Shown piece after piece: positions 11,821-44,292 of a stretch of DNA of 64,000 nucleotides (position 1 is its first letter; each line of letters starts with the position of its first letter). The position numbers and the translations under genes were made by a program. This stretch comes from Eledone cirrhosa. Its lineage: Eukaryota. The notes beneath the pieces were generated by a model. The model saw nothing but the letters and a program-made list of their open reading frames with translations. It had not been told where the DNA came from and did no database searches. The stretch lies in the NCBI GenBank assembly GCA_964016885.1, contig OZ024760.1:23622001-23686000 (forward strand). Direction: 5' to 3'.

Positions 11821-14005
11821 ATAATCGGTTCTACTTTAGGCACAAGGACGGACATTGGAAGTGGAGGGGAAAATCAATTGAATCGACCCCAGTACATTAA
11901 TGGTACTATATGTTATCGACCCAGTAACGATGAAAGGCGAAGCTAACCTTAGCGAAGCTAGCATCAGCGAAGCTAACCTCAGCGAAGCCTACCTCAGCCA
12001 AGCTAACCTCAACGAAGCCTACCTCAGCCAAGCTAACCTCAACGAAGCTAACCTCAGCCAAGCTAACCTCAACGAAGCTGACCTCAACGAAGCTAACCTC
12101 AGCGAAGCTAACCTCAGCGAAGCTAACCTCAGCGAAGCTAACCTCAGCGAAACTAACCTCAACGAAGCTAACCTCAGCGAAGCTAACCTCAACGAAGCTA
12201 ACCTCAACGAAGCTAACCTCAGCGAAGCTAACCTCAGCGAAGCTAACCTCAACGAAGCTAACCTCAGCGAAGCTAACCTCAGCGAAGCTAACCTCAACGA
12301 AGCTAACCTCAGCCAAGCTAACCTCAACGAAGCTAACCTCAACGAAGCTAACCTCAGCGAAGCTAACCTCAGCGAAGCTAACCTCAACGAAGCTAACCTC
12401 AGCCAAGCTAACCTCAACGAAGCTAACCTCAACGAAGCTAACCTCAACGAAGCTAACCTCAGCCAAGCTAACCTCAACGAAGCTAACCTCAACGAAGCTA
12501 ACCTCAGCGAAGCTAACCTCAGCGAAGCTAACCTCAGCGAAGCTAACCTCAGCGAAGCTAACCTCAGCGAAGCTAACCTCAACGAAGCTAACCTCAACGA
12601 AGCTAACCTCAGCGAAGCTAACCTCAGCGAAGCTAACCTCAACGAAGCTAACCTCAGCGAAGCTAACCTCAGCGAAGCTAACCTCAACGAAGCTAACCTC
12701 AGCAAAGCTAACCTCAGCGAAGCTAACCTCAGCGAAGCTAACCTCAGCGAAGCTAACCTCAACGAAGCTAACCTCAGCCAAGCTAACCTCAGCCAAGCTA
12801 ACCTCAGCGAAGCTAACCTCAGCGAAGCTAACCTCAACGAAGCCTACCTCAGCCAAGCTAACCTCAGCGAAGCTAACCTCAGCGAAGCTAACCTCAGCGA
12901 AGCTAACCGCAACGAAGCTAACCTCAGCGAAGCTAACCTCAGCGAAGCTAACCTCAACGAAGCTAACCTCAGCCAAGCTAACCTCAACGAAGCTAACCTC
13001 AACGAAGCTAACCTCAGCGAAGCTAACCTCAGCGAAGCTAACCTCAGCGAAGCTAACCTCAACGAAGCTAACCTCAACGAAGCTTACCTCAGCCAAGCTA
13101 ACATCAGCGAAGCTAACCTCAGCGAAGCTAACCTCAACGAAGCTAACCTCAACGAAGCTTACCTCAGCCAAGCTAACCTCAGCCAAGCTAACCTCAGCCA
13201 AGCTAACCTCAGCGAAGCTAACCTCAACGAAGCTAACCTCAGCGAAGCTAACCTCAGCGAAGCTAACCTCAACGAAGTTAACCTCAACGAAGCTAACCTC
13301 AACGAAGCTTACCTCAGCCAAGCTAACCTCAGCCAAGCTAACCTCAGCCAAGCTCACCTCAGCGAAGCTAACCTCAACGAAGCTTACCTCAGCCAAGCTA
13401 ACCTCAGCCAAGCTAACCTCAGCGAAGCTAACCTCAGCGAAGCTAACCTCAACGAAGCTTACCTCAGCCAAGCTAACCTCAGCCAAGCTAACCTCAGCCA
13501 AGCTAACCTCAACGAAGCTTACCTCAGCCAAGCTAACCTCAGCCAAGCTAACCTCAGCCAAGCTAACCTCAGCCAAGCTAACCTCAGCCAAGCTAACCTC
13601 AGCCAAGCTAACCTCAGCCAAGCTAACCCCAGCGAAGCTAACCTCAGCCAAGCTAACCTCAGCCAAGCTAACCTCAACGAAGCTTACCTCAGCCAAGCTA
13701 ACCTCAGCGAAGCTAACCTCAACGAAGCTTACCTCAGCAAGCTAACCTCAGCCAAGCTAACCTCAGCGAAGCTAACCTCAGCGAAGCTAACCTCAACGAA
13801 GCTTACCTCAGCCAAGCTAACCTCAGCCAAGCTAACCTCAGCCAAGTTAACCTCAGCGAAGCAAGCCCCAGCGAGGCCAGCCTCAGCGAAGCTAACCGCA
13901 GCGAAGCTAGCCTCGGCGGAGTTAGAACTCAGAGCGTAAAAGGACGTAACTCTATGCTACAAATCATGGTGTCCGATGCTTTACCGATTCTGCCGATCCA
14001 CTGCC
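11821..14005 (-). mobile_element. tRNA-derived SINE interrupted by an internal 15-bp expansion
   Basis: Left flank TTAGGCACAAGG..TGGTACT..TATCGACCCAGTAACGATGAAAGGC; right flank CTCGGCGGAGTTAGAACTCAGAGCGTAAAAGGACGTAACTCTATGC..TACCGATTCTGCCGATCCAC. Joined, they give one collinear SINE. Confidence 0.85.
11936..13919. repeat. 15-bp minisatellite (GCGAAGCTAACCTCA)n, ~130 units, forming a 679-aa pentapeptide-repeat-like ORF (11900-13939)
   Basis: Strict 15-bp period with AGCG/AACG/AGCC variants. Translates EANLS/EANLN/QANLS; a 1-bp deletion near 13738 switches it to AKLTS. Also open on the minus strand. Confidence 0.95.
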
Positions 14006-14241
14006 CTTATAATGCACCGCAACAACTTATAAATCCTATAACACAGATAATGTCACCATCGACTAATATCCTAATTTCCAAAGCGAAGAATTTCTGGAAA
14101 TCAGAAATAAAATACAAATTTATAAAACAGAGAAAGAATGCGTTTTAAAAATAGTTCTGGAAAATTCTTAATACATGAAATTAAATTAACAACGAATGTA
14201 GGAATTCAAGAAAAAAACGAAACACAACATATGACGAAATG

Positions 14242-14290
<49 letters not shown>

Positions 14291-28140: not shown

Positions 28141-28480
28141 GTGTGGCACGCCGCCCAGGCTTTGCTCCTCCTCTCGACCACGTCATCTTCTGTATTCCCA
28201 ATCTTTGCTCCCAGATACGGGAAATCCTCAACCAATTCTAGCGCCTTCCCGCCTACATTCATAATCTTCTCCGGCTTCTTAATATTGTCTACCAGATATT
28301 TCTCCAGTCTCCACATGCTGCATCAAATACTCTGCCTCCTTCACTGTATTTGTCACCAGAACTATGTCGTTAGCAAATTCAGCATCGGATATATTTTTGA
28401 CCTTAACTTTCCTGTTCTCAGCCGGTGTTACAGTAAAACAAATGTTCTGATGTTTCTCCAGCGCAAGACGCATACAGTTT
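28141..28480 (-). pseudogene. RTE LINE reverse transcriptase fragment (inverted 5' part)
   Basis: Minus strand: ISDAEFANDIVLVTNTVKEAEYLMQHVE (YADD-like), then KALELVEDFPYLGAKIGNTEDDVVERRSKAWAACH. Confidence 0.85.
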
Positions 28481-28499
28481 GAGATTGGTGCGGGAATCG

Positions 28500-28945
28500 T
28501 ACCTTGTAAATACCTGAAGATCCGTTTCTTCGTTGCTGTAGTGGAGTATGTGCTGCTGTGCGACTCTGAGACTTGGACAGTGACCAAGAAATTCACCCAG
28601 ATGATGGATAGGGGCTACAAGAGAATGCTGATGATGATGGCTCTGAACATTAATCTGTATTTAATGAGGACGAAGAACTCAGATCTGTACGGGAGCCTCC
28701 CAAATGTCAGCTCGAAAGTAGCAGAGAGGAGACTGAGGTTAGCTGGACATGCTCTCCGACATCTAGAGTTGACACTACACGCATTGCTCCTGTGGGAGCC
28801 CTCTACACGGACACACTGGAAGAGGAAGTCCGAGGTTAACATATGTTGATGCGCTAAGGACAGACATTGGTTTCTTGGAGTCGCAGGACATGGCAGCGTT
28901 AATAAGGGACAGAAACCGCTGGAGAGAACTCGTCCATGGATCTTT
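28500..28945 (+). pseudogene. RTE LINE C-terminal fragment (sense 3' part)
   Basis: Reads KIRFFVAVVEYVLLCDSETWTVTKK..RMLM..ALNI..LYGSLPNVSSKVAERRLRLAGHALRH..LLWEP..RGSPRLTYVDALRTD..RDRNRWRELV. Confidence 0.9.
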
Positions 28946-28984
28946 GGTAATGGAATGAATATATTGTGTTGTTCATTATGTAAT

Positions 28985-30009: not shown

Positions 30010-30435
30010 CGTTTCTAACCTAATAATTGTTTCTAGTTTAGGCACAAGGCCAGCAATTATCCAGTGCATTACTGGTACTTTATTTTATCGACCCCGTAAG
30101 GAGGAAAGGCAAAGTCAACCTCGGCGGGATTTGAATTCAGATCATAAAGGGACGTAACTCTATGCTTCAAAGCATGGTGTCCGACTCTCAACCGATACTG
30201 CCAATCCACCACCATTTCTAACCTAATAATTGTTTCTACTATTGACACAAGGCCAGCAAATTAACCAGTACATTACTGGTACTTTATTTTATCGACCCCG
30301 TAAGGATGAAAGGCAAAGTTAACCTCGGCGGGATTTGAACTCAGAATGGCAAGGGCCGTAACTCTATGCGTCAAAGCATGGCGTCCGACACTCTACCGAT
30401 ACTGCCAATTCACCGCCCGTTTCTAACCTAATAAT
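30010..30435 (-). mobile_element. Head-to-tail SINE dimer with three copies of an 18-bp target sequence
   Basis: SINEs at ~30025-30213 and ~30228-30417. C(G/A)TTTCTAACCTAATAAT at 30010, 30213 and 30418. Confidence 0.9.
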
Positions 30436-33857: not shown

Positions 33858-33893
<36 letters not shown>

Positions 33894-36410
33894 ACAACAA
33901 CACACACTAGAAGCATCGTAAGCAGCAGTTGCAATGGCAGCAGCAGTTGTAGCAGCGGTGGCATCAGTGTCGGCGCTATCATCATCAGCAGCAACTGCAG
34001 TAGAGCCCGCTGTAAAATCATCATCATCATCATCAACAACACACAATATAAGCATCGTAAACAGCATTTGCAGCAGCAGCAGTTGTAACAGCGGCTTCAG
34101 TGTCAGCGTCATCAGCAACAGCAGCTGTACAGCAGCAATAACTGCAGCTGCATTTCAGTAGACACATCTGCGAAATCATCATCAACAACGCACAATAGAA
34201 ACAACGTAAGCAGCAGTTACAGCGTAAGCAGCAGTTACAGCATTAGCAGCAGTTACAGCGCATGCAGCAGCAGAAGCAGCAGCCGTGGCATCAGTGACGG
34301 CACCAACAGCCTCTCCAGCTGCACAGCTGCTTTTCAGCAGACATCGCTGTAAAACCATTATCATCAACAACACACAATAGAAGCATCGTAACCAGCAGTT
34401 GCAGCAGTAGCAGCAGTAGCAGCATAAGTAGCAACAACAGCAGAAGCATTTGTAGCTGCGGCTTCACCATCAGCAGCAGCAGTAGAGCCGCAGCAGGAAA
34501 TGCAGTTGGAATGCAGTAGACACCGCTGTAAAGTCATCGTCACCAACAAATTCATAAGCAGCAGCAGTCTCACCATCAGCAGCTGTTGGTGCAGTAGACA
34601 CCCCTGTATAATCATCATCATCATCAGCAGCAGTCGTGGTTGTGTCATCGTCAGCCCTGCAGCAGCAACATCTGTAGCTGGTGATCTAGGAGACGCCACT
34701 TTATAATAACCAACTGCAGCATCAGCAGCAACAACTGTATCTGGTGATGCAGGTGGCGGCGCTGTTTAACCATCCTCTTAGCAGCAACAGCAGCACTTTC
34801 AGCAGTAAATGCAGCTTGTAGTGCAGTTGATATAATCACCATCAACACCAACAGCAGCAGAAGTAACGCTACGTATATCAGCTGTACAACTGCAGTTGAT
34901 GGTGCAGTTGACATAATCACCATCAACCTCATCAGCAGCAGAAGTAGCAGCCCCATCTGTAGTTATACAGCAGCAATGACAGCAACTGTTGATGCAGTTG
35001 ACATAAACAGCTGCAACACTAACAGCAGCAGAAGTAACGCTACCAATATCAGCTGTACAACTGCAGCTGATGGTGCAGTTGATATAATCCGCATCAACAG
35101 CAGCTGTAGACCAGCAGCATCTATAGCTGATAGTGCAGTCGGCATCATGATCATCAATACCAACATAAGCAGTTATACAGCAGCAGCAACTACAGCTGGT
35201 GCTGCAGTTGTCATCATATTCATGAACGCCATCATCTGCAGCAGTAGCCACACCATCATCACCTGTACAGCAGCAACAACTGCAACTGGTAGTCCAGTAG
35301 ACATTACTGTGTAATCAACATCATCAACACCATCAGCAGCCGCAGTGGCGGCACTATCATCAGCTGAACTGCAGCATAAACTACAGCTGGTGCTGCAGTT
35401 GGCATAACCATCATCAACATCGTCAGCAACTGTAGAGCAACAACAACTACAGCTGGTGCTGCAGTTGGCATAAACACCATTAACATCGTCAACAGCTGTA
35501 GAGCAACAACAACTGCAGCTGGTGGTGCAGTTCACACCACTCTATAGTCATCACCATCAAAACCCTCAGCAACAGCAATGGCGGCGGTAGCAGCACCATC
35601 AACAGCTCAACTGCAGCAACAACTACAGCTGGCCGTGCAGTAGACATGATAATTATCAACAACATGAGCTACAGCCGTTGTGGCATTACCAGCACAACCA
35701 ACAGCTGCACGACTGCAGCTAGTGGTGCAGTAGACACTGTTTTATAGTCATCAGCAGCTATATAACAGCAAAAACTGCAGCTGGTGCAGCAGTCGACATC
35801 TTAGTGTATAACCATCAGCAGCAGCATCAACAGTAGAATCAGCATCGCCAACATCAGCTGCAAAGCAACAATGACAGCAGCTGGTAGTGCAGTTAACATT
35901 ATTCAACACCATCAGCAGCAGCAGAAGCTACGGCAGCCTCACCAGCTGTAGAGCAGCCATAACTGCACCTGGTGCTGCAGTTGACATTACTATATAACCA
36001 TCACCATCAACACCACCAGTAGCATCAGTAGATGCATCAGCAGCAGCTGTGCAGCAGTAGGCATAATCATCATCAACACTATCATCTGGTGGTGTTGTTG
36101 ACACAGTCACCATCAACGCCATCAGCAACAGCAATAGCGGCAGTAGCACAAGTAGCAGCAGCATCAACAGTTGTAAAACAGCAACAACTGCATCTGGTGG
36201 TGCAGTTGACATTAATGTATAATCAGCAACATCAACAGCACCATCAAAAGCAGCAGCTATACAGCAGCTACAACTGCATCTGGTTGTGCAGCAGCCATTA
36301 CTATGTAATCAACACCATCAACATCATCATCAGTAGCGGCACTATACAGCAGCAACAACTGCAGCAGGTTTTTCAGCAGCCATTACTCTGTATACATCAT
36401 CATTATCCAA
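33625..36410. repeat. Degenerate CAG/CAT/CAA cryptic minisatellite with ~65-80-bp subunits
   Basis: Recurrent CAGCTGGTGCTGCAGTTG(G/A)CATAA..CCATCAAC motifs; no long coherent ORF. Confidence 0.85.
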
Positions 36411-42904: not shown

Positions 42905-44292
42905 TTAATGTCTGGTGGATTTTAGTGCTGAGAAAACTGAGACACTCATCCTCTCAAGAAAACCTCTACTCTGGTGCACTCTACATGTAAATGGAGTTTC
43001 ACTGAAGCAGGGTGAGGTGTTCAAGTATATCGTGTCCCTCCTCACGTGAGATGGAAAGCAGGAGGCTGAATTAAGTGCAAGAAATGCAGCAGGCTGAATT
43101 AGGTTCAAGAAATGCAAGAGGCTGAATTAGGTTCAAGAAATGCAAGAGGCTGAATTAGGTTCAAGAAATGCAGCAGGATGAATTAGGTTCAAGAAATGCA
43201 AGAGGCTGAATTAGGTTCAAGAAATGCAGCAGGCTGAATTAGGTTCAAGAAATGCAAGAGGCTGAATTAGGTTCAAGAAATGCAGCAGGCTGAATTAGGT
43301 TCAAGAAATGCAAGAGGCTGAATTAGGTTCAAGAAATGCAGCAGGCTGAATTAGGTTCAAGAAATGCAAGAGGCTGAATTAGGTTCAAGAAATGCAGCAG
43401 GCTGAATTAGGTTCAAGAAATGCAAGAGGCTGAATTAGGTTCAAGAAATGCAGCAGGCTGAATTAGGTTCAATAAATGCAAGAGGCTGAATTAGGTTCAA
43501 GAAATGCAGCAGGCTGAATTATGTTCAAGAAATGCAAGAGGCTGAATTAGGTTCAAGAAATGCAGCAGGCTGAATTAGGTTCAAGAAATGCAAGAGGCTG
43601 AATTAGGTTCAAGAAATGCAGCAGGCTGAATTAGGTTCAAGAAATGCAAGAGGCTGAATTAGGTTCAAGAAATGCAGCAGGCTGAATTAGGTTCAAGAAA
43701 TGCAAGAGGCTGAATTAGGTTCAAGAAATGCAGCAGGCTGAATTAGGTTCAAGAAATGCAAGAGGCTGAATTAGGTTCAAGAAATGCAGCAGGCTGAATT
43801 AGGTTCAAGAAATGCAAGAGGCTGAATTAGGTTCAAGAAATGCAGCAGGCTGAATTAGGTTCAAGAAATGCAGCAGGCTGAATTAGGTTCAAGAAATGCA
43901 GCAGGCTGAATTAGGTTCAAGAAATGCAAGAGGTTGAATTAGGTTCAAGAAATGCAGCAGGCTGAATTAGGTTCAAGAAATGCAAGAGGCTGAATTAGGT
44001 TCAAGAAATGCAGCAGGCTGAATTAGGTTCAAGAAATGCAGCAGGCTGAATTAGGTTCAAGAAATGCAAGAGGCTGAATTAGGTTCAAGAAATGCAGGAG
44101 CTCATGCATCAATTCGCCAGCTTCAGCATTCAGGAATCAGAAGAAGGGAGACGGGCGTAAAGGCCATAACCCGCTATCTTCAATTCGGTTTTTGTGTCAA
44201 CCTTTCTCTATGATCATGAATTTTGGGTAATGACCGAAAGAATATGAACTTTATTACAAACGGCCGAAATTGGATTCCTCCGAACGGTCTTT
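42905..44292 (+). pseudogene. RTE (Expander-like) LINE fragment split by a satellite
   Basis: Left: SAEKTETLILSRKP..LHVNGVSLKQGEVFKYIVSLLT*DGKQEAELSAR. Right: AIFNSVFVSTFLYDHEFWVMTERI*TLLQTAEIGFLRTV. The two parts are collinear RT thumb sequence. Confidence 0.85.
43064..44098. repeat. 28-bp satellite, ~37 units, mostly alternating to form a 56-bp higher-order unit
   Basis: GGCTGAATTAGGTTCAAGAAATGCA followed by AGA or GCA, mostly in alternation. Confidence 0.97.

What the first reader, a model, noticed from the sequence alone, without database searches (positions are those of the whole stretch)
11821..14005. A 679-aa pentapeptide-repeat ORF created de novo by expansion of 15 bp of a SINE
Seen: the array sits exactly where sister SINEs read AAAGGCAAAGTTAACCTCGGCGGGATTTGAACTCAGA. 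The unit GCGAAGCTAACCTCA is that segment between two GGC/AGC microhomologies. The ATG (11900) and stop (13939) both come from antisense SINE sequence. Established: A-[D/N]-L-x-x is the consensus of pentapeptide-repeat (PF00805) beta-helix proteins, which are mainly bacterial and include DNA-mimic gyrase binders such as Qnr and MfpA. Inference: convergent mimicry rather than horizontal transfer. It is an annotation trap, but also a plausible one-step route to a foldable de novo protein.
Basis: partly seen in the sequence, partly recalled or inferred. Interest (0 to 1): 0.75.

Follow-up and report, generated by a model that had tools for sequence, protein, structure and literature searches.

The report
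SINE-born minisatellite mimicking pentapeptide protein
A 15-base piece inside a very common short jumping element, likely in an octopus genome, is repeated 132 times and happens to spell a bacterial-type beta-helix protein motif, but the repeat is likely neutral DNA rather than a gene, because the same expansion recurs elsewhere and the copies show no sign of protein-level selection.

Summary
Observation confirmed with corrections. A 132-copy, 15-bp array (11937-13918) interrupts one SINE copy just after its B box. The 679-codon antisense ORF is real and hits PF00805 (622 bits). With an alignment, AlphaFold2 folds a 240-aa piece as a beta-helix (pLDDT 90; the full ORF alone gave 32). The evidence points to a neutral by-product. 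The A-N-L codons and an in-frame ATG already exist in unexpanded SINE copies (223 exact-motif copies). The same register is duplicated at 9 other places, plus a 37-copy array. All four open frames of the array pass the PF00805 cut-off. Ten of 11 other PF00805 places examined in this genome are also tandem arrays. Variant types match neutral expectation (3 of 15 synonymous; 20% expected). A 1-bp deletion near 13737, not confirmed by reads, shifts the frame at residue 613; without it the ORF would be 749 aa. Horizontal transfer is rejected. Expression was untestable. This is a SINE-derived minisatellite and an annotation trap; an expressed de novo solenoid remains about 5% likely. Earlier scan notes describe transposon-derived satellites elsewhere in this genome and 15-bp pentapeptide arrays in phage genes; my word search found none joining a SINE to a pentapeptide ORF.

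The parts
11821..11936 (-). 3' part (body and tail) of a tRNA-type SINE copy, long form
   Evidence: Aligns to window sisters; 9 differences in 60 nt from the column majority of 30 sister copies
11937..13918 (.). 15-bp minisatellite, 132 copies, consensus GCGAAGCTAACCTCA; three spread variants give S>N (41 units), E>Q (36) and N>Y (11) in the ANLSE frame
   Evidence: depth check
13919..14006 (-). 5' head of the same SINE copy; its Pol III-like A and B boxes both depart from sister copies
   Evidence: Sisters carry TGGCAGWATCRG and GTTCAAATC; neither pattern matches in this copy. Box consensus patterns are recalled.
11900..13939 (+). 679-aa ORF antisense to the SINE: 13 SINE-derived codons, about 600 aa of ANLSE-type repeats, then about 67 aa in the AKLTS frame
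   Evidence: PF00805 621.7 bits; exact sequence not in the 15-billion protein collection
11900..11902 (+). First ATG, a private substitution in this SINE copy; T at position -3
   Evidence: 1 of 30 sisters has ATG at this slot
11930..11932 (+). SINE-inherited in-frame ATG; in unexpanded sisters it opens a micro-ORF, typically MKGEANLGGI-stop
   Evidence: 28 of 30 sisters
13737..13738 (.). 1-bp deletion (14-bp unit) that shifts the frame; real allele or assembly error is unresolved
   Evidence: no listed contig carries it, and two collapsed repeat contigs carry an extra C there
13920..13928 (-). Altered B box; the same changes remove the TGA that closes the ANLSE frame in sisters (AGA at 13924-13926)
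   Evidence: TGA in 26 of 30 sisters
13717..14148 (+). Continuation of the ANLSE frame beyond the deletion (143 codons, stop at 14146-14148); without the deletion the ORF would be 749 aa
   Evidence: the 82-aa non-repeat tail has no Pfam match

Best explanation
This is a 15-bp minisatellite sitting inside one SINE copy, likely born by a microhomology-mediated tandem duplication and expanded by slippage or unequal exchange, and its pentapeptide-repeat ORF is likely a non-functional by-product. Shown: the unit equals the SINE segment bounded by a GGCG microhomology right after the B box; the antisense strand of unexpanded copies already reads M-K-G-E-A-N-L; the unit has no stop in 4 of 6 frames; the same register is duplicated at other SINE copies. 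Inferred: the duplication mechanism; spread of variant units by turnover within the array; a possible contribution of the GCGAAGC mini-hairpin (51 occurrences in the array) to this array growing far longer than its sisters; and the absence of a protein product.
For: Flanks are SINE on both sides. 223 copies carry the same ANL-coding motif, and 0 of the 30 examined are duplicated. The same 15-bp register is duplicated at 9 other places with 2-15 copies, and independently as a 37-copy array in another SINE copy that also passes PF00805 in two frames (L175). Period 15 is the commonest period, 6 of 36 places, among the first 100 listed rows (contigs C1-C2); Poisson P = 0.002, or 0.05 after correcting for 29 periods (hand count). 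Distinct substitutions in 129 units: 3 synonymous, 12 non-synonymous, 0 stop, against 9/35/1 possible (P = 1.0). Six units break the core Leu (to I, R or P). All four open frames pass the PF00805 cut-off of 20.2 bits: 621.7, 290.3, 146.7 and 25.3. A PF00805 scan of the genome (150 of 4191 candidates scored) gave 12 places; of the 11 others, 10 are tandem arrays of period 15 or 30, one with a 6461-codon open frame, and one is an ordinary exon. About 5% of random 15-mers (156 and 169 of 3000) reach 30 bits on a proxy HMM, a level that 7 of 9 PF00805-positive array units reach.
Against: This array holds the best PF00805 scores in the genome, and only 2-3 of 3000 random 15-mers match as well on the proxy HMM, which is however built from hits to this sequence. 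The three variants that spread (Q, N, Y) are all among the 14 best-tolerated of 36 possible non-synonymous changes (P = 0.05; circular for the same reason). The SINE's TGA is lost in the ANLSE frame and a second ATG was gained. With 15 change types the neutrality test is weak, and concerted evolution blurs it. Real phage genes built from near-identical 15-bp units are reported in earlier scan notes (unchecked), so unit homogeneity alone does not exclude a gene.
Confidence: 0.87

Rival explanations
1. Young de novo gene: the locus is transcribed antisense to the SINE and translated from the ATG at 11900 or 11930 into a long right-handed quadrilateral beta-helix that is, or is becoming, subject to selection.
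For: In-frame ATG inherited from the SINE; TGA lost. AlphaFold2 with a 62-row alignment gives pLDDT 90 and pTM 0.85 for a 240-aa piece, matching designed solenoid 4yfo and HetL 3du1 at TM 0.81-0.82. Crystallised synthetic 'beta1' solenoids are 40-50% identical. Spread variants are residues common in natural pentapeptide proteins. AATAAA occurs at 14283 and beyond.
Against: Neutral variant spectrum and core-Leu breaks; frameshift in the assembly; single-sequence model pLDDT 32; the alignment-driven model shows only compatibility with the fold; no confident capping helices (first 30 residues pLDDT 48-52); no TATA-like match and 12 upstream ATGs in the 500 bp before the ORF; many unrelated arrays give equal or longer PF00805 ORFs.
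Confidence: 0.05
2. Horizontal transfer or contamination: a bacterial (cyanobacterial-type) pentapeptide-repeat gene inserted into the SINE.
For: Protein hits up to 64% identity, mostly labelled pentapeptide-repeat proteins. 25 plasmid records match at 60-80% DNA identity; the 8 listed are cyanobacterial pentapeptide genes.
Against: The listed DNA matches start and end inside the array. The unit is the SINE's own sequence and is continuous with both flanks. Third codon positions are nearly invariant between units. Shorter stages of the same expansion exist at other SINE copies. Read depth fits a nuclear locus.
Confidence: 0.01
3. The array acts at DNA or RNA level: a hairpin-forming, CpG-containing tandem repeat that silences the SINE copy or affects local chromatin or a nearby gene.
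For: GCGAAGC occurs 51 times and is a mini-hairpin with Tm 76.5 C (PMC13037366, section 2.3 read). The array has GC 0.52 in an AT-rich window. The copy's Pol III boxes are altered.
Against: The two commonest variants remove the motif (35 and 40 occurrences). I recognised no host exon among the 80 filtered open frames listed for the window (by eye). Sister duplications arise without the motif. Predicted folding of 60-mers is weak, about -3 kcal/mol.
Confidence: 0.05
4. The long array is an assembly artefact.
For: Tandem arrays are error-prone (general knowledge); no contig covers 13848-13901 or carries the 13737 deletion.
Against: Depth ratios match assembled k-mer copy numbers in 3 of 4 stretches tested (22.2 vs 18-20; 7.0 vs 7.3; 3.9 vs 3.9; the fourth 4.9 vs 7.5). 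Variants are patterned along the array.
Confidence: 0.02

Closest known systems
SINE-derived satellites (sSat) of squamate reptiles (PMC10702118; abstract and Discussion read)
   Same: Tandem repeats made from an internal part of a SINE; minor variants keep SINE sequence at both ends; arrays range from short internal duplications to long arrays; some primary duplications are favoured.
   Different: Here the unit is only 15 bp, the genome is likely molluscan, and the unit encodes a protein-family consensus on the antisense strand, which the parts I read do not discuss.
TE-derived minisatellites in human, and microhomology-mediated tandem duplication (PMC3389668, abstract and part of Results; PMC13167724, abstract and opening paragraphs)
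   Same: 23% of human mini/satellites derive from TEs; hotspots exist within AluS; single-copy segments flanked by short direct repeats duplicate and then expand, mostly neutrally.
   Different: The microhomology here is only 3-4 bp, against 5-20 bp flanks in the human survey; the product is a 2-kb open frame with a SINE-supplied ATG.
Pentapeptide repeat proteins, PF00805 (HetL 3du1, Np275/276 2j8k, designed beta1 solenoids 4yfo/4yc5; review PMC8145042, passages read)
   Same: Repeat consensus (ANLSE fits the updated consensus), HMM match and predicted quadrilateral beta-helix.
   Different: No homology by descent; no confident capping helices; about 120 uninterrupted repeats before the frameshift; no codon-level sign of selection; expression unknown. 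Qnr, MfpA and AlbG are only 11-21% identical.
A genuine pentapeptide-repeat exon in this genome (L164, G000:C2:267.17 Mb; KCTD9-like by recall)
   Same: Passes PF00805 (70.7 bits).
   Different: Diverged repeats, no 15-bp DNA periodicity, and AG and GT splice-like borders: what a real animal pentapeptide gene looks like.

Membership tests
Pentapeptide repeat proteins (PF00805) | At least 8 contiguous repeats of the consensus; above the Pfam cut-off | tested here: met
   621.7 bits against 20.2; but the three other open frames also pass
Pentapeptide repeat proteins (PF00805) | Right-handed quadrilateral beta-helix | tested here: inconclusive
   pLDDT 90 with alignment and TM 0.81-0.82 to 4yfo and 3du1; pLDDT 32 for the full ORF without alignment; prediction only
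Pentapeptide repeat proteins (PF00805) | Terminal capping helices or a partner domain | tested here: inconclusive
   N-terminal helices in the model fall on repeat sequence at pLDDT about 50; the tail has no Pfam match; the C-terminus was not modelled with an alignment
Pentapeptide repeat proteins (PF00805) | Descent from a pentapeptide gene, with purifying selection on codons | tested here: not met
   Unit derives from SINE DNA; 3 of 15 change types synonymous against 20% expected
Pentapeptide repeat proteins (PF00805) | Expressed as a protein | not testable with these tools
   No proteomics or ribosome profiling available
Qnr/MfpA gyrase-binding DNA mimics | C-terminal helix dimer and loops projecting from the coil (QnrB1) | tested here: not met
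   Uninterrupted repeats without loops; 11-21% identity; features from PMC8145042 passages
SINE-derived minisatellite | Unit homologous to an internal SINE segment, with SINE continuing on the flanks | tested here: met
Microhomology-mediated tandem duplication | Short direct repeat bounding the unit in the unexpanded allele | tested here: met
   GGCG (4 bp) in L120; GGC is the only period-15 match of 3 bp or more in the majority-type copy tested. The mechanism itself is inferred.
tRNA-type SINE | High-copy short element with internal Pol III A and B boxes | tested here: met
   217,437 exact-motif copies; boxes found in 3 of 3 sisters checked; no Rfam or ARAGORN hit
Nin-DC/Deu SINE superfamily | Conserved central domain after the B box | not tested
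   Resemblance recalled from memory; no reference sequence available; passages of PMC4824008 and PMC4758252 did not give one
De novo gene | Non-coding ancestral state identifiable | tested here: met
   Sister copies carry only a roughly 10-codon micro-ORF; these are paralogues, the orthologous site was not available
De novo gene | Transcription and translation | not testable with these tools

The most novel reading that the evidence does not exclude
A 200,000-copy SINE carries, on its antisense strand, an ATG followed by one pentapeptide-repeat unit bounded by a microhomology, so a single duplication-expansion repeatedly creates ATG-started beta-solenoid ORFs. At this locus the product (679 aa, or 749 aa if the single-base deletion is an error) is transcribed, translated and folds: a one-step birth of a regular protein fold from non-coding DNA.
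Probability: 0.05. Interest if true: 0.8.

Novelty: new member of a known kind. Interest (0 to 1): 0.3.

Why it matters
As it stands, it is a clean worked example of minisatellite birth inside a SINE, with stages from 1 to 132 copies in one genome. It is also a practical warning: PF00805 hits, DNA hits to cyanobacterial genes and confident alignment-driven AlphaFold models can all arise from non-coding 15-bp repeats, which could create false horizontal-transfer or gene calls in repeat-rich animal genomes. If expression and folding were shown, it would be direct evidence that a repeat-protein fold can arise de novo in one mutational series. The locus makes that long-standing idea cheap to test.

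Tried and rejected
1) Single-sequence AlphaFold2 of the full ORF was uninformative (pLDDT 32), so it was not used for a fold search. 2) Expression: no RNA holder listed; this is no evidence either way. 4) The frameshift at 13737 stayed unresolved, because contigs collapse the repeat. 5) The control search for duplications at another SINE motif was confounded, because that motif recurs naturally at 33 bp in the long SINE form; the hotspot claim therefore rests only on the period count (first 100 of 2119 rows). 6) Mini-hairpin as cause of the first duplication: not supported; the 9 other duplications lack it and 0 of 30 hairpin-bearing sisters are duplicated. Its role in later growth rests on one locus. 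7) The 27-kb C1 satellite (ADLNR) resembles the SINE unit but has no SINE flank; its origin is left open. The C28, C955 and C3 arrays found with the protein query are not inside a SINE. 8) No orthologous locus could be examined (no relatives held). 9) Rfam and ARAGORN found nothing; the exact protein look-up was negative. 10) Literature: seven searches. 'Pentapeptide repeat' plus 'minisatellite' gave 4 papers, none by title or abstract about a SINE-derived pentapeptide ORF. The library lacks most subscription journals, and no supplements were read.

Full report
What is there. Tandem Repeats Finder reports a 15-bp array at 11937-13918 with 132.2 copies and 91% matches. An ATG-started frame runs from 11900 to 13939, 679 aa. 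The window lies in a 3.0-Gb genome and is dominated by microsatellites and transposon remnants; I recognised no host exon among 80 filtered open frames (by eye). That the animal is an octopus is inferred from my recall of such genomes and from earlier scan notes; I did not test it. Read depth in three runs of one sample fits the assembled copy number, though they may be the assembled sample.

The host element. Both flanks align to repeats elsewhere in the window at 74-89% identity and meet at the unit. Read on the minus strand, sister copies have Pol III-like A and B boxes (3 of 3 checked; box patterns recalled), so this is a tRNA-type SINE and the ORF is antisense to it. The array starts directly after the B box, and both boxes are altered in this copy. 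The majority motif occurs 217,437 times in the genome. A minor variant that already reads GAAAGGCGAAGCTAACCT occurs 223 times. In the 30 of these that I examined, none is duplicated, 28 have an in-frame ATG three codons before E-A-N-L, and the typical antisense reading is MKGEANLGGI-stop. So the A-N-L codons and the ATG at 11930 predate the expansion. The ATG at 11900 and the loss of the TGA at 13924 are private to this copy; 1 of 30 sisters shares both. The flanks differ from the sister majority at 15 of 98 positions.

How the array arose. In an unexpanded variant copy the unit is bounded by a 4-bp direct repeat, GGCG. In a majority-type copy, GGC at the same place is the only period-15 match of 3 bp or more. 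The same register is duplicated at 9 other places with about 2-15 copies. A further SINE copy on C17 carries an independent 37-copy array of the same segment. Among the first 100 of 2119 rows of a spacing search, period 15 was the commonest, 6 of 36 places (hand count; P = 0.002, or 0.05 after correction). My control motif was confounded, so 'hotspot' is suggestive only. This fits microhomology-mediated tandem duplication followed by expansion (PMC13167724, abstract and opening paragraphs; PMC3389668, abstract and part of Results) and SINE-derived satellites (PMC10702118, abstract and Discussion). The unit contains GCGAAGC, a mini-hairpin with Tm 76.5 C that needs a GNA loop (PMC13037366, passages and section 2.3). 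It is absent from the majority SINE and present 51 times here. It may have helped this array outgrow its sisters, but that rests on one locus.

The pentapeptide match. The ORF scores 621.7 bits on PF00805. Its nearest solved sequences are designed beta1 solenoids, HetL and Np275/276. With a 62-row alignment, AlphaFold2 models a 240-aa piece at pLDDT 90, and Foldseek matches it to 4yfo and 3du1 at TM 0.81-0.82. The full ORF without alignment gave pLDDT 32. The match is not specific. The unit leaves four frames open, and all four pass the cut-off of 20.2 bits: 621.7, 290.3, 146.7 and 25.3. A PF00805 scan of the genome scored 150 of 4191 candidates and gave 12 places. Of the 11 others, 10 are tandem arrays of period 15 or 30, with open frames up to 6461 codons, and one is an ordinary spliced-looking exon. 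The 37-copy and 15-copy SINE arrays also pass PF00805. On a proxy profile about 5% of random 15-mers reach 30 bits, while only 2-3 of 3000 reach this unit's level of about 60. The proxy is biased toward this unit. Still, the textbook quality of ANLSE is a lucky draw, and this array is the best PF00805 place in the genome.

Is it under selection as a protein? In 129 units there are 15 distinct substitutions: 3 synonymous, 12 non-synonymous and no stop. Of the 45 possible changes, 9, 35 and 1 fall in those classes, so the spectrum is as expected without selection. The three variants that spread are all non-synonymous, and six units break the core leucine. In the other direction, the three spread variants are all among the 14 best-tolerated of 36 changes (P = 0.05, circular). 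The test has low power. A 14-bp unit at about 13737 shifts the frame at residue 613 from EANLS to AKLTS, and only that shift reaches the stop at 13937. No listed contig carries the deletion, but contigs collapse the repeat, so it is unresolved. Without it the frame would run to 14148, giving 749 aa. The number 679 therefore hangs on one unverified base. The 500 bp upstream have no TATA-like match and 12 ATGs. Expression could not be tested.

Horizontal transfer. Protein hits reach 64% identity, and 25 plasmid records match at 60-80% DNA identity, the 8 listed being cyanobacterial pentapeptide genes. The listed matches are confined to the array, while the unit is the SINE's own sequence and intermediate stages exist. 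This is convergence.

Verdict. A SINE-derived minisatellite whose unit happens to encode a pentapeptide-repeat consensus: a new member of a known kind, and a strong annotation trap. As a translated sequence it would probably be compatible with a beta-helix, but it fails the descent-and-selection test for membership of the pentapeptide family. The bold reading, an expressed de novo solenoid, is not excluded, and I put it at about 5%. I found no paper describing a SINE-derived pentapeptide ORF in seven searches of the held library (listings only unless stated). Also seen as passages: PMC4824008, PMC4758252, PMC8145042. No supplements were read. A word search of earlier scan notes for SINE plus pentapeptide found none; related notes are listed under earlier findings.

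Noticed in passing
L173/L174 (G000:C1:307.188-307.207 Mb, minus strand): A 15-bp satellite of more than 1200 copies gives a 6461-codon open frame of MNLHG repeats with an ATG in most units; the 1332-aa part tested scores 595 bits on PF00805. No SINE flank in the part fetched.
   Followed up: partly
L175:1886-2442 (G000:C17:629.9-630.4 kb): Independent 37-copy expansion of the same SINE segment; units mix the segment with the neighbouring B-box sequence; two frames pass PF00805.
   Followed up: yes
L164:1438-1632 (G000:C2:267.17 Mb): A genuine-looking pentapeptide-repeat exon with AG and GT borders, KCTD9-like by recall.
   Followed up: partly
L179/L180 (G000:C1:18.96-18.99 Mb): About 27 kb of 15-bp satellite reading ADLNR; the unit resembles the SINE segment, but no SINE lies at either end.
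   Followed up: partly
L034/L181 (G000:C28:111.53 Mb) and L036-L050 (G000:C955:0.76-0.90 Mb): Large 15-bp satellites reading PSNLS or PSNLT, with open frames up to 1752 codons.
   Followed up: partly
L083:1486-1891 (G000:C1:71.90 Mb) and G000:C2:398.465 Mb: Other arrays containing the same motif: a 27-bp, 15-copy array from the SINE, and a 37-bp array of unexamined origin.
   Followed up: partly
L117: One unexpanded sister copy independently shares three private states of the window copy (upstream ATG, CAG after the unit, TGA to AGA) yet is not closer overall.
   Followed up: partly
window 33858-36385: Degenerate 9-86 bp tandem repeats reading as Ala/Thr/Val/Asp-rich on the minus strand, possibly a decayed low-complexity coding region.
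   Followed up: no
window 43054-44097: A 28-bp minisatellite, 37 copies, 92% matches; origin not examined.
   Followed up: no
window 30012-30435: Head-to-tail dimer of the SINE with a 204-bp period.
   Followed up: partly
window 28282-28983: Frames resembling the end of a LINE reverse transcriptase remnant (recalled resemblance).
   Followed up: no
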